From IMG/VR virus record IMGVR_UViG_2541047807_000011: 34,131 nt of DNA; one strand, 5' to 3'. Origin of the DNA: a virus (lineage: Duplodnaviria > Heunggongvirae > Uroviricota > Caudoviricetes). Within the stretch, counting starts at the first letter, position 1. Every line of letters starts with the position of its first letter. The position numbers are program-made. Shown in pieces: positions 24,001-27,000 of this stretch.

Positions 24001-27000
24001 TAGCCATTCGCCATACCGGGATTTCTTTCTGCTGCGTGACAACAAAAAGCGCCCCGGCAAACGCGCCCACCACAACCCCGAAATCGGTATTGGTGAGAAG
24101 GCCAAACACACTGGCACCACCGATGGTGACTGCCACAGCTCCGCCGCCTGATAAGGGTTCAGACATGAGTTTCTCCTGTAAATCTGAGCCACTGACGGCC
24201 CGTAAATAACACCCGGTCAAAGGCACAGAATGACTTTTGCCGGGCGCTATCCCTTAAGGTGTCTTGTGGTCTGAGTGGACAGGGTAAACGGTATGCTGTG
24301 GTGGGTACTGCTGGGGGTGTTCAGCACCCCCAGCAGGTTGATTATCTGGATGGGTTAAAGAGAAGCGAGTTTTAATGGTGGCTTATAACATGCCCGCGCC
24401 AGCAGGTTAGCTCTTTCCACGGCATTACGCATTTCCCGTTCCGCGTCAATCATTCTGTTTACGGCTGACAGCACTTCATCATGATTCGTTACTGATTCCG
24501 GGCTTTGGGCCTGTTTCGCCAGGTAACTGGATAAACTGCACATTTCAGCATGTCGGCGACGGGCTGCATCCCGGGCCTTGTCTGAAAATGCGGTATATTC
24601 ACCGAGCACTGCATAGTCGATATCGGTGTCAGAACGCATCATTTCGTGTCTCCTTTTTTCTGAGGCCCATTAATCAAAAAGCCCCACCTGGGTGGGGCTT
24701 TTCAGCGAAGTCTGTTTTTGTCGTCGGTGTATCAGCTGCCATGCGTACCGGTCTGAAATGCCGTAACGGGGACAGAGCAGTGCCAGCGCCTGCCGGTGTG
24801 AGCATCCGCCTTTTACATGCTGCTGTAAATCAGCCATAAAACGGGTGTTACGCAGGGCACGTAACGCATGATCGCAACGGGGAATGTAAAACGGTGCGCC
24901 GCCAAGAAAACGGATCAGTTTGTTGATTTCGTCTTCGGTCAGCACGTCATGTAACAGGGCATGGACACCGCCGGTGCGTTCGGCGTGTACGCCGGTTTTA
25001 CCGCTTAACGTCACGCCACCAAAAGAACGAATCAACCGGGTCAGGGCGGGGAAGCCAATCACGCTAATCAGTTGCTGCACGGAATCGGGCAGCAGTGCCT
25101 GCGCATCGCGAAGATCTGTTTCACTGAAGGTCTGCATGATGGCGTCTCCGGTAGTAACTTACTGTTATTATAGCCATACATGATCGCCTGTACAGACCAC
25201 AAAAAAAGCCCCTGCATGGCAGGGGCTAAACTAAGTCTTATTTAGTCAGGTCTAGAATAACCAGGCCTTTTCTTGATTCTATTTGCTCTTTACCAAAAAC
25301 AAACGAATCAAAACAATCCATACGATATTCTTTAAACTGATTTCTTGAACGCTCCAGAAACTGCCTGTCATCCCTGATAACGTTAGACCAGTAATCCTGT
25401 AGCTGGTTTTTCATTTTTATGCAGGAACCATACACAGGATCAAGCGGGTCGTCCCCCAGTTTACTGGCCTGTTCATCCAGTTGTTTTAGTCCTTTTTTGA
25501 TATTCTTCCACTCTTCAATATTTCCCTGCTGATACTGCGATGCCGCTTCTGGCATAGCGTAATAAAGTTTTCCACTTTCCCGAAGCATCTGTTCAGCCAA
25601 TGGCTTCATATCCTGATAACGTTTCAGTTCCTTTTGCGCCTGTTCCTCTGTCTGTGCCAGCACAGAACAAGAGAAAATAACCCCTACTAAACAAAACAAC
25701 CATTTTTTCATCATTGATTTCTCCTTCTTGAATCTTTAACCAGCGCCACCATCACTCCAAAAAGCTGTTCATCCGTCAGCCATTCGATCACATGTTGCTT
25801 ATACATGTGAGATGCCAGTCCTTCCGCATACGCCCAGGAACGACCGGCATCAGCCAGCAACGCTTCAATTTTGGATAATATCGATTTTCTGCTCATTGCA
25901 ACACGGGGGCGGCGACCTTTACCGGCGGGTGCCTTGCGCGGAAATCCCTGTTCATGCATGTATTCCCGGATGATGCGCAGTTCATCGAGGTTGCAGCGTG
26001 TGGTGCTGGTTTTACCGGTCAGGCGGGCCAGCGTCTGGCGATAAAGGACATCATCCCACCCCAGATACGCCTGACCGGCTTTAATGGCTCCGATCATCTT
26101 TTTCAGCATGTTTGTTATCCTCAAAACGCACGGTAAAACGTGAAACGCCAATCCCTGACAAGAACGCAGCGGCACGGTCAAGAGACAGCCATGTCTTGTA
26201 ATCGCCACGGCGTTCCTGTAGAAAATAGGACACCCCGGCGCGGCGATTCACAGCGAATAGATGATACACACCACCGAACCGCTGCACGACAAACTCATCC
26301 ACGCCACCGCTTTCAGCCTGTTGCCTGAAAGCTGTCATTCCGATTTGTTCAATCTTCATAATGACCAAAACATCACTTTTGGCAGACCAAAACATATGTT
26401 TTGGTCTGCTATTGGTTATTATTAAATTACTTTGCGTTAGTGTGATTCTTCCAGCGATTTTGTGTCGCGCTTCTGTTTCGCCAGACACCGTAAAAACGAA
26501 TAGAGGACCACTCCCTAAAACCAAGATATCTATAGCGAACAACAAGTCGATTTGAGATACGGATAAGTTGCCCTGGCTTTGCTATTAGCAGTCTTGCCTT
26601 ACGGTTTTTCATCATTTTGCTCTCCTGCGTTTCTTTGCTTCGCGTCGTGCAGCTGCAATACCGGTATGGCGCTTTGGTGCCGGGATGATGCTGTCAGCCA
26701 TCAGGGCATGCGGCTTTGCAATTAGCGCAGAAGCCCAAAAACGAGTCGGGTATGGTAATAAACCGATAAACGCTACACGCATTACGCACCTCCTTTGGCG
26801 TCAATATTTACAGCCTGGCAAGCCTCGTTGAGCACCCAGTCAACCGCGTCTTTCCATGCTCCGGTTTCGACTGGCGGATTCTCACACTTTACCTGTTCAT
26901 AGAAACGCACTGCTTTAACTAGTCCTTCCGGCACTACCGACGCTGGCGGGGCAGCATAAAGCTCATGCATTCCATCAGGTAGCAAGTGACCTACATACTC

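What the first reader, a model, noticed from the sequence alone, without database searches (positions are those of the whole stretch)
24303..24336. Conserved dyad motif upstream of the lysis operon, repeated at two other late operons: candidate late-activator site
GGGTGTTCAGCAC(C/T) occurs three times in the window, always in the same orientation and always in an intergenic gap upstream of a late gene block. At the lysis and head sites the conserved block extends to GGTACTG-N4-GGGTGTTCAGCACCC. Here it is embedded in a 12-bp perfect inverted repeat. Mu late promoters depend on the C activator binding a dyad site just upstream of a weak promoter; the Mor/C-family protein at 24670-25137 is the obvious candidate binder.
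Basis: partly seen in the sequence, partly recalled or inferred. Interest (0 to 1): 0.65.

Follow-up and report, generated by a model that had tools for sequence, protein, structure and literature searches.

The report
Three activator-dependent late promoters, Mu-like prophage
The repeated motif marks three late-gene promoters of a Mu-like E. coli prophage, most likely switched on by the phage's own Mor/C-type activator as in phage Mu but through a different DNA sequence; this is an expected kind of element, with one unusual prediction that two of the transcripts start at the start codon.

Summary
GGGTGTTCAGCAC(C/T) occurs exactly three times, in one orientation, in the gaps before the lysis block, the head protease gene I and the baseplate gene gp46 of a Mu-like prophage whose genes all lie on the minus strand.

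Read in the direction of transcription, the conserved unit is GCTGAAC-N-CCC-TCAGC-like, a 16-bp imperfect dyad GCTGA-N6-TCAGC. It is followed after exactly 32 bp by a -10-like hexamer (nAnnnT), with no -35. If that hexamer is -12..-7, the dyad centre falls at -43.5, the geometry published for Mu C sites.

A weight matrix built only from relatives in other genera picks out these three window sites and nothing else. A Klebsiella phage and Haemophilus phage SuMu carry their own variant motifs at the same three positions.

The binder is most likely the single Mor/C-family protein (24670-25137). This is inferred, not shown.

At the head and tail sites the ATG lies 6-7 nt after the hexamer. These two genes have the weakest Shine-Dalgarno matches of 29 genes, which suggests leaderless mRNAs.

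Verdict: a new member of a known kind, of moderate interest.

The parts
24310..24325 (-). Lysis-operon activator box, GCTGAACACCCCCAGC. This is the 16-bp imperfect dyad, predicted at -51..-36.
   Evidence: Sequence. A PWM built from other genera scores it 22.5 bits; the next-best non-site scores 9.6 and the shuffle maximum is 14.7. Orthologous boxes lie after the activator gene in L144-L153 and L159.
24281..24286 (-). Predicted -10 hexamer TACCCT of the lysis promoter. Predicted transcript start is near 24274, giving a leader of about 108 nt to the holin ATG at 24166.
   Evidence: A fixed 32-bp spacing from GCTGAAC to an nAnnnT hexamer holds in 29 of 30 sites; no other offset gives more than 6 of 30. 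No full sigma-70 promoter is found in the region.
24303..24336 (.). It contains the 12-bp perfect inverted repeat (24308-24336), which overlaps the box and is particular to this copy.
   Evidence: Searches show the repeat. Close relatives (activator 92-100% identical) carry a C in place of T, or a wholly different upstream arm. Across 30 sites it pairs no better than slid controls.
16157..16172 (-). Head (gene I) activator box, GCTGAACACCCTCCAC.
   Evidence: PWM score 20.3. The same box lies in the G-I gap of L144-L153 and L159.
16128..16133 (-). Predicted -10 hexamer CATCAT of the head promoter. The ATG of protease I (16120) begins 7 nt after it.
   Evidence: Gene I has the weakest anti-SD complementarity of 29 genes (+1.2 kcal/mol).
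4232..4247 (-). Tail/baseplate (gp46) activator box, GCTGAACACCCTCACC, immediately after the gp45 stop codon (4250-4252).
   Evidence: PWM score 26.6. The same arrangement is found in Klebsiella phage L159 and in Intestinirhabdus, Trabulsiella, Yersinia and Pectobacterium loci L160-L163.
4203..4211 (-). Predicted extended -10, TGC-CAGACT, of the tail promoter. The gp46 ATG (4196) is the 7th nt after the hexamer.
   Evidence: The TGn motif is present in all 6 tail sites. gp46 has the second-weakest anti-SD match (-1.5 kcal/mol).
24670..25137 (-). Mor/C-family transcription activator (155 aa), the candidate binder of the three boxes.
   Evidence: Pfam Mor scores 28.5 bits against a cutoff of 24.9. 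PHROG 836 'late transcriptional activator', E = 3.5e-42. The family profile hits Mu 'Late transcription activator C' in PDB entries 9l0x and 9vw8. It is the only Mor-family gene annotated in the prophage. The C-terminal QVGLF resembles the clamp-binding motif of Mu C (PMC12867686).

Best explanation
The three motif copies are the activator-binding boxes of three sigma-70 late promoters of a Mu-like prophage. The promoters head the lysis/packaging/early-head block, the head protease I to tail block, and the baseplate gp46 to tail-fibre block. Each promoter has a 16-bp imperfect dyad (consensus GCTGAAC-c-CCC-TCAGC, i.e. GCTGA-N6-TCAGC). If the hexamer is taken as -12..-7, the dyad spans -51 to -36. 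There is no recognisable -35, and a weak -10 (TACCCT, CATCAT, TGc-CAGACT) lies exactly 32 bp downstream of GCTGAAC. The phage's single Mor/C-family protein (24670-25137) binds the dyad as an oligomer overlapping the -35 region and recruits or activates host RNA polymerase holoenzyme, as Mu C does at Plys, PI, PP and Pmom. What is shown here: the motif statistics, the fixed geometry, conservation and co-variation across genera, and the family membership of the protein. What is inferred: binding by this protein, activator dependence, late timing, and the transcript 5' ends. A further inference is that the head and tail promoters start transcription at or within a nucleotide or two of the ATG of gene I and of gp46, giving leaderless or near-leaderless mRNAs.
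For: 1. There are exactly three sites, all in gene orientation and all intergenic.
2. A PWM made only from sites in other genera scores the three window sites 20-27 bits. The next-best position scores 9.6 and shuffles reach at most 14.7.
3. An nAnnnT hexamer lies at a fixed 32-bp spacing in 29 of 30 sites from more than 10 genomes. Any other offset gives at most 6 of 30. This places the dyad centre at -43.5, the published position of the 16-bp imperfect dyad bound by Mu C at promoters that have -10 but no -35 hexamers (PMC2582627).
4. No complete sigma-70 promoter is found at any of the three sites.
5. The dyad arms are conserved in sequence without compensatory change: 78% complementary against 13-51% in slid controls, with a single double change. 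This fits a protein site rather than an RNA helix.
6. Klebsiella phage ST405-OXA48phi1.1 (activator 41% identical) has the variant CCCACTGAAGCCCnTCAA at the same three gaps. SuMu (33% identical) has an unrelated motif, GTGGAA..TTCC, at the same three gaps. The motif therefore changes with the activator while its positions are kept.
7. In close relatives the sequence upstream of the lysis box is replaced wholesale, with the breakpoint at the 5' edge of the box.
8. In L147 the whole module (box, 32 bp, TACCGT, SD leader) precedes a different gene, so it behaves as a portable promoter.
9. The candidate binder belongs to the Mor/C family.
10. Genes I and gp46 have the two weakest SD matches of 29 genes, and their ATG lies 6-7 nt after the hexamer in 9 of 10 head sites and 6 of 6 tail sites.
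Against: There is no experimental evidence. Transcript 5' ends, activator dependence and binding are all untested. The -10 hexamers are weak (3-4 of 6 matches), and their assignment rests on conserved spacing plus the A at position 2 and T at position 6. In this E. coli phage the right half of the dyad is degenerate (CCAGC, TCCAC, TCACC). In the Klebsiella phage the gp46 start at the leaderless position is GTG, which from my own knowledge of E. coli leaderless translation is a poor start codon; this weakens the leaderless corollary. The fold search of the AF2 monomer model returned only generic HTH domains, not Mor or C specifically. Some relatives encode two Mor/C paralogues, so which family member binds is not settled by co-occurrence alone.
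Confidence: 0.78

Rival explanations
1. The boxes are late-promoter elements, but they are recognised by something other than the Mor/C-family protein: another phage protein, or a host factor.
For: Binding was not tested. Several small early genes of unknown function lie nearby, such as the 158-aa and 95-aa ORFs with no or uninformative family hits. Some relatives have two Mor/C paralogues.
Against: The 95-aa gene is absent from close relatives that keep the box. The Mor/C-family gene is the one regulator found in every genome that has the boxes. The geometry matches Mu C sites (PMC2582627). The motif differs between phages with divergent activators, as expected if a phage-encoded protein is the binder rather than a host one.
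Confidence: 0.1
2. The motif acts at the RNA level, as a hairpin in read-through transcripts that serves as a processing, stabilising, antitermination or translational-control element between operons.
For: The lysis copy can form a 12-13-bp GC-rich hairpin. The box lies in intercistronic gaps that read-through transcripts would cover.
Against: The long hairpin is not conserved. The conserved short dyad shows departures that break pairing and only one compensatory change in 150 cells. The strongest conservation is in the would-be loop and left arm (CTGAA is invariant). A second conserved feature at a fixed DNA distance (A at -11, T at -7) has no RNA-structure rationale. No U-tract follows on the gene strand.
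Confidence: 0.04
3. The inverted repeat at 24308-24336 is a terminator or insulator that ends the early or middle transcript before the lysis operon.
For: The scan lists it as terminator-like, on the + strand only. It lies at the early/late boundary.
Against: On the gene (-) strand no T-run follows. The + strand carries no genes there. The perfect repeat is absent from close relatives. Better terminator-like hairpins already flank the activator gene, at 25227-25207 and 24700-24679. The head and tail copies have no such long repeat.
Confidence: 0.04
4. The three copies are a chance repeat, or a remnant of a small mobile repeat with no function.
For: None beyond the short length of the motif.
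Against: By my own arithmetic, three exact copies of one 14-mer in 34 kb are expected about 1e-4 times. 0 of 100 shuffles reach the observed count. The motif is conserved at orthologous positions across genera.
Confidence: 0.01

Closest known systems
[quoted passage not shown]
   Same: These are sigma-70 promoters with a -10 but no -35 hexamer, and a 16-bp imperfect dyad centred at -43.5 that is bound by a Mor/C-family activator (PMC2582627, PMC4461284). One promoter follows the activator gene and precedes the lysis genes. One lies in the G-I gap, next to a gyrase-site-like AT-rich element. One lies in the baseplate region. The activator carries a C-terminal QxxLF clamp-binding-type motif (PMC12867686).
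   Different: The recognition sequence is GCTGA-N6-TCAGC-like, not TTAT-N5-6-ATAA. The activator shares only about 26 bits of local similarity with either Mu C or Mu Mor. There is one activator gene instead of the Mor-to-C cascade. The third promoter sits in the gp45/gp46 gap, whereas by its name and by my reading of the Mu sequence Mu PP lies upstream of P (gp44), at the end of gene N. No fourth, mom-type site is found in the window. Gene I and gp46 have no leader or SD here, whereas Mu I has an SD-bearing leader.
Phage Mu middle promoter Pm, activated by Mor
   Same: The activator family is the same. A dyad lies just upstream of, and overlapping, the -35 region, and the mechanism is recruitment (PMC4287176; bioRxiv 10.1101/2025.05.02.651988).
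   Different: Pm drives the middle operon that encodes C. Here the boxes head structural and lysis operons, and the activator gene itself has a separate sigma-70-like promoter (TGTACA-16-TATAAT).
P2/186/P4 late promoters, activated by Ogr/B/Delta
   Same: The logic is the same: a small phage activator binds a dyad upstream of several -35-less late promoters. A possible satellite parallel exists in L147, an integrase-primase island that carries a Mor-family gene behind the same box.
   Different: The protein family is unrelated (zinc-finger Ogr), with a different site and position (TGT-N12-ACA near -55, from my own knowledge). No homology is implied.
Leaderless mRNAs of E. coli phages, such as lambda cI from PRM
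   Same: The start codon is predicted at the transcript 5' end, and no SD is present.
   Different: The known cases are mostly repressor genes (from my own knowledge). Here the candidates are late structural genes, and nothing has been mapped.

Membership tests
Mu-type Mor/C-dependent late promoter | A recognisable -10 hexamer but no -35 hexamer | tested here: met
   No full sigma-70 promoter is found at any site. An nAnnnT hexamer lies at a fixed offset in 29 of 30 sites. The -35 region reads AGTACC or similar, 2 of 6 matches (sequence).
Mu-type Mor/C-dependent late promoter | A 16-bp imperfect dyad centred at about -43.5, overlapping the -35 region | tested here: met
   GCTGA-N6-TCAGC spans -51..-36 relative to the predicted hexamer. 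It is 78% complementary against 13-51% in slid controls. The position is relative to a predicted start, not a mapped one.
Mu-type Mor/C-dependent late promoter | Several copies, each heading a late operon (lysis, head gene I, tail) | tested here: met
   There are three sites, before the holin, protease I and gp46. The positions are conserved in other genera.
Mu-type Mor/C-dependent late promoter | Mu C's own recognition sequence, TTAT-N5-6-ATAA | tested here: not met
   The boxes read GCTGAACACCC(C/T)C.... The Mu Plys and PI sequences are unrelated. These are therefore not Mu C sites in the strict sense, but sites for a divergent family member.
Mu-type Mor/C-dependent late promoter | Transcription starts about 43 bp downstream of the dyad centre and requires the activator | not testable with these tools
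   This needs 5'-end mapping and trans-activation assays.
[quoted passage not shown] | Sequence membership: Pfam PF08765, including the conserved linker G-G-x-x-(F/Y)-Y-I-P and a C-terminal HTH | tested here: met
   Pfam Mor scores 28.5 bits, above the 24.9 cutoff. PHROG 836, E = 3.5e-42. The profile of 15 homologues hits Mu C chains 9l0x and 9vw8 over residues 68-152, E about 1e-3. FLGGAPFYIP aligns with FLGGRQFYIP of Mu C.
[quoted passage not shown] | Three-dimensional fold like Mor (1RR7) or C (9l0x) | tested here: inconclusive
[quoted passage not shown] | Beta-clamp-binding motif (Qx[DE][LM]F at the N-terminus, QPDLF-like at the C-terminus; PMC12867686) | tested here: met
   The C-terminal ...TQVGLFD is present. 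Q150, L153 and F154 are nearly invariant in alignment A1. No clear N-terminal motif is seen. Function was not tested.
Intrinsic (rho-independent) terminator | A GC-rich hairpin followed by a U-tract on the transcribed strand | tested here: not met
   The hairpin is present, but on the gene strand it is followed by TACCCACCAC. Only the gene-less + strand is flagged.
Structured cis-acting RNA element | A helix maintained by compensatory substitutions | tested here: not met
   There is 1 double change in 150 cells for the short dyad, and the long repeat is at control level.

The most novel reading that the evidence does not exclude
The head (gene I) and baseplate (gp46) late promoters may be built so that transcription starts on the A of the start codon, giving leaderless late structural mRNAs. 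This layout is conserved across Enterobacterales Mu-like phages: box, 32 bp, hexamer, 6-7 nt, ATG, with no SD. Translation of these two genes would then depend on transcripts that start at their own promoter. Read-through transcripts from upstream late operons would translate them poorly. Separately, the same promoter module drives a Mor/C-family gene on a small integrase-primase island (L147). This hints at a satellite that both senses and mimics the helper's late activator, a Mu-world analogue of P2/P4 Ogr/Delta.
Probability: 0.45. Interest if true: 0.55.

Novelty: new member of a known kind. Interest (0 to 1): 0.36.

Why it matters
The work defines the late-promoter architecture and the likely operator sequence (GCTGA-N6-TCAGC, with CTGAA invariant) for a widespread lineage of Mu-like prophages of Enterobacterales. 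The prophage is found in 61 of 5,426 complete E. coli genomes, and relatives occur in Klebsiella, Yersinia, Pectobacterium, Xenorhabdus, Photorhabdus, Morganella and other genera.

It shows that the Mu C geometry (a dyad at -43.5, no -35) is conserved while the recognition sequence diverges. That gives natural specificity variants for the recently solved Mor/C-RNA polymerase complexes and for the clamp-coupling model.

It also allows annotation of three late transcription units. It gives a cheap, testable prediction of leaderless late mRNAs. It points to a possible satellite that uses the same regulatory module.

It does not reveal a new kind of mechanism.

Tried and rejected
1. An exact 14-mer scan of viral contigs returned at least 120 scattered single hits. 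Nearly all looked like chance matches in a very large collection, so it was uninformative and dropped.

2. A megablast of the region against the phage collection found only a 491-bp match in two Yersinia phages. No sequenced phage is close.

3. Single-protein search for related loci gave only relatives at 92% identity or above. These were useful for showing that the 12-bp repeat is not conserved, but not for footprinting. An alignment query was needed.

4. A loose regex (GCTGAA[CT]-N32-nAnnnT) also hit 29841 and 22697 in the window. Both lie in coding sequence. The first scores 9.6 bits with the PWM and the second is not in the top list, so both were rejected as sites.

5. I first took TACCGT (24293-24288) and the shared CAGTACC as possible -10 elements. 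I rejected them because close relatives change them (GACCGT) and because only offset 32 is conserved.

6. I first took the dyad centre to be the G of CTGAA (GGGTG-CTGAA-CACCC). I rejected this after comparing genera.

7. CATGCT at offset 24 in the tail sites was considered as an alternative -10. I rejected it because it would put the box out of register with the lysis and head sites.

9. Margolin et al. 1989 (PMC209851), which maps the Mu late 5' ends, is not held. The leader lengths of Mu PI and PP were therefore judged from sequence only.

10. No paper describing this motif or leaderless Mu-like late genes was found. Absence from that library does not prove novelty.
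Full report
CONTEXT. The window is most of a Mu-like transposable prophage, with every phage gene on the minus strand. The early genes are the Ner-like repressor (33895-34131), transposase A (31853-33895) and B ATPase (30941-31834), followed by a single Mor/C-family gene (24670-25137). After that come two holins and a GH108 endolysin (24166-22959), then terminase, portal, F and G (to 16329). Protease I (16120-15005) is followed by capsid, sheath, tape measure, N, P and gp45 (to 4250). 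The last block is gp46, gp47, gp48 and tail fibres (4196 downward). Near-identical prophages occur in 61 of 5,426 complete E. coli genomes. No sequenced phage is close.

OBSERVATION.
- GGGTGTTCAGCACY has exactly three exact matches, all on the + strand, at 4237, 16162 and 24315. With up to 2 mismatches there are 6 matches against 0.52 expected, and 0 of 100 shuffles reach that.
- The three mismatched hits are in the opposite orientation and inside genes.
- The repeat finder confirms the family and the 27-nt lysis/head extension.
- With real start codons (holin 24166, protease I 16120, gp46 4196) all three copies are intergenic.
- The 12-bp perfect inverted repeat at 24308-24336 exists.
Because the genes are on the minus strand, the motif must be read as (G)GTGCTGAACACCC.

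ANATOMY. Read in the direction of transcription, the three sites are:
- lysis: GCTGAACACCCCCAGC, then 23 nt, then TACCCT;
- head: GCTGAACACCCTCCAC, then 23 nt, then CATCAT;
- tail: GCTGAACACCCTCACC, then 23 nt, then CAGACT.
In each case exactly 32 nt separate GCTGAAC from a hexamer with A at position 2 and T at position 6. No complete sigma-70 promoter is present at any of the three sites. The -35 region reads AGTACC or similar.

COMPARATIVE EVIDENCE. Close relatives from viral contigs (activator 92-100% identical) keep the box. Some of them replace the whole upstream sequence at the lysis site, with the breakpoint at the 5' edge of the box. They also break the 12-bp repeat.

A profile of 15 activator homologues retrieved loci from Trabulsiella, Xenorhabdus, Photorhabdus, Intestinirhabdus, Buttiauxella, Morganella and Lonepinella (activator 36-55% identical). 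Each has a box after the activator gene and another in the G-I gap. The consensus is tGCTGAACcCCCTCAgC, again with 32 nt to TATACT, TACACT, TATGCT, TACGCT, CACAAT or CATCAT.

The tail site, directly after the gp45 stop codon, is kept in Intestinirhabdus, Trabulsiella, Yersinia and Pectobacterium. All tail sites have a TGn extended -10.

Over 30 sites the nAnnnT hexamer sits at offset 32 in 29. The remaining site has it at 33. Any other offset gives at most 6 (three rows of that call were extracted 2 nt off and were re-read by hand).

A weight matrix built only from the non-window sites scores the three window sites 26.6, 22.5 and 20.3 bits. The next-best position scores 9.6 and shuffles reach at most 14.7. 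The window therefore holds exactly three sites.

WHICH DYAD. The conserved dyad is GCTGA-N6-TCAGC. It is 78% complementary across 30 sites, against 13-51% when the partner is slid, and it shows a single compensatory change. That is the pattern of a sequence-specific protein site, not an RNA helix. If the hexamer is -12..-7, the 16-bp dyad spans -51..-36 and is centred at -43.5. [quoted passage not shown] The geometry is therefore the same.

CO-VARIATION WITH THE ACTIVATOR. Klebsiella phage ST405-OXA48phi1.1 (activator 41% identical) carries CCCACTGAAGCCCnTCAA three times: before the lysis genes, in the G-I gap, and in the gp45-gp46 gap. Haemophilus phage SuMu (33% identical) carries an unrelated GTGGAA..TTCC motif in the same three gaps. 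Positions are conserved while the sequence follows the activator, which argues for a phage-encoded binder.

THE BINDER. The 155-aa protein passes the Pfam Mor threshold (28.5 against 24.9 bits) and matches PHROG 836. Its family profile hits Mu C in PDB entries 9l0x and 9vw8. It is about equally distant from Mu C and Mu Mor. It is the only family member annotated in the prophage.

The SDRxxW segment, which I take to be the recognition helix, is invariant in the subfamily that shares the CTGAA core. The C-terminal QVGLF matches the clamp-binding motif shown to be needed for Mu C function (PMC12867686).

The AF2 model (pLDDT 81.5) gave only generic HTH matches, which is inconclusive. Binding itself is inferred, not shown.

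LEADERLESS COROLLARY. At the head site the ATG of gene I follows the hexamer by 6-7 nt in 9 of 10 genomes. Lonepinella instead has a leader of about 30 nt with an SD. At the tail site the start codon is the 7th nt after the hexamer in 6 of 6 genomes. In the PGAP-annotated, 99.4%-identical prophage, gene I (+1.2 kcal/mol) and gp46 (-1.5) have the two weakest anti-SD matches of 29 genes; all the others are -3.5 or lower. This suggests transcripts that begin at the start codon. Against this, the Klebsiella gp46 start is GTG, and nothing has been mapped. I put this corollary at roughly even odds.

RIVALS. An RNA element is excluded by the lack of covariation and by the conserved DNA-distance feature. 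A terminator role for the long repeat fails because no U-tract follows on the gene strand and the repeat is not conserved. Chance is excluded statistically and by conservation. A different binder cannot be excluded without biochemistry, but nothing supports it.

COMPARISON AND NOVELTY. This works like the Mu C late-promoter system, and the protein is a Mor/C family member. The sites are not Mu C sites, because Mu C recognises TTAT-N5-6-ATAA (PMC12867686). There are further differences from Mu:
- there is one activator rather than a Mor-to-C cascade;
- the third promoter sits in the gp45/gp46 gap, whereas I read Mu PP as lying before P, from the promoter's name and the Mu sequence;
- no fourth, mom-type site lies in the window, although the window ends inside an invertible-segment-like tail-fibre region;
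- genes I and gp46 lack leaders.
I found no paper describing this box.

VERDICT. This is a new member of a known kind. Interest is moderate.

Noticed in passing
L147 9940-10456 (Tenebrionibacter intestinalis NZ_JAEPBH010000038.1), island about 1495-11000: A Mor-family gene (51% identical to the window's) is itself preceded by the full promoter module: GCTGAACACTCCCCAC, 32 nt, TACCGT, then a GGAGG leader. It sits on an island of about 9-10 kb with a P4-type integrase, AntA, Toprim primase and DUF927 helicase, between the host genes yicC and pfkA. No Mu late genes lie within 10 kb. It looks like a phage satellite that could sense and mimic a Mu-like helper's late activator, analogous to P4 Delta and P2 Ogr.
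   Followed up: partly
window 16120 and 4196 (start codons of gene I and gp46): These two genes have the weakest Shine-Dalgarno complementarity of 29 prophage genes (+1.2 and -1.5 kcal/mol; all others are -3.5 or lower). Their ATGs lie 6-7 nt after the predicted -10 hexamers. This predicts leaderless late mRNAs.
   Followed up: partly
window 16207-16237 (- strand): The AT-rich element cgtttttaaaagggttttaaaaacggtttta lies in the G-I gap, about 40 bp upstream of the head box. It is conserved in all relatives examined (L144-L155, L159, SuMu) and resembles the Mu G-I gap, where the strong gyrase site is annotated (NC_000929 17879). It is probably the equivalent gyrase site.
   Followed up: partly
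window 24679-25227: The activator gene is an insulated cassette. A strong terminator-like hairpin lies at 25227-25207. A sigma-70-like promoter TGTACA-16-TATAAT lies at 25194-25167. Then come the gene and a second terminator-like hairpin at 24700-24679 that overlaps its 3' end. In some relatives (e.g. L144) the gene instead follows gp16/GemA directly.
   Followed up: partly
window 24355-24642: A 95-aa gene (phrog_7152, function unknown) sits between the activator's terminator and the lysis promoter, with a good SD but no visible promoter. In many near-identical prophages it is replaced by unrelated sequence, with the breakpoint at the 5' edge of the activator box.
   Followed up: partly
window 24676-24690: The C-terminal QVGLF of the Mor-family protein matches the beta-clamp-binding motif shown to be required for Mu C-dependent transcription (PMC12867686). 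Q, L and F are nearly invariant among 15 homologues.
   Followed up: partly
L145, L146, L150, L151 (about 8920-9365 and 10001-10453): The Xenorhabdus, Photorhabdus and Morganella relatives encode two Mor/C paralogues (about 36% and about 50% identical to the window protein), like Mu's Mor plus C. The window prophage and several other relatives have only one. The cascade depth therefore varies within this lineage.
   Followed up: no
L165 (Haemophilus phage SuMu) about 10045-10065, 18480-18500, 30465-30485: SuMu has its own repeated motif (G)TGGAA-N4-6-TTCC in the same three gaps: activator-lysis, G-I and gp45-gp46. The three-promoter layout is therefore general while the operator sequence is lineage-specific.
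   Followed up: partly
window 1-1088 (+ strand) versus 1060-2191 (- strand): A tail-fibre C-terminal fragment and a tail-fibre assembly gene lie on the + strand, opposite a tail-fibre and assembly pair on the - strand. This looks like a Mu G-segment-type invertible host-range cassette. The window ends inside it.
   Followed up: no
L141 and L164 (E. coli SCAID WND1-2021, NZ_CP082831.1): In this strain the Mu-like prophage is flanked by truncated capsid and prohead-protease genes of an HK97-type prophage, so it appears to have transposed into another prophage. Its tail-fibre region also differs from that of the window.
   Followed up: no
window 21267-22007: A DNA methyltransferase gene lies inside the first late operon, between DUF1804 and terminase. 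No com/mom-type module or fourth activator box was seen in the window.
   Followed up: no
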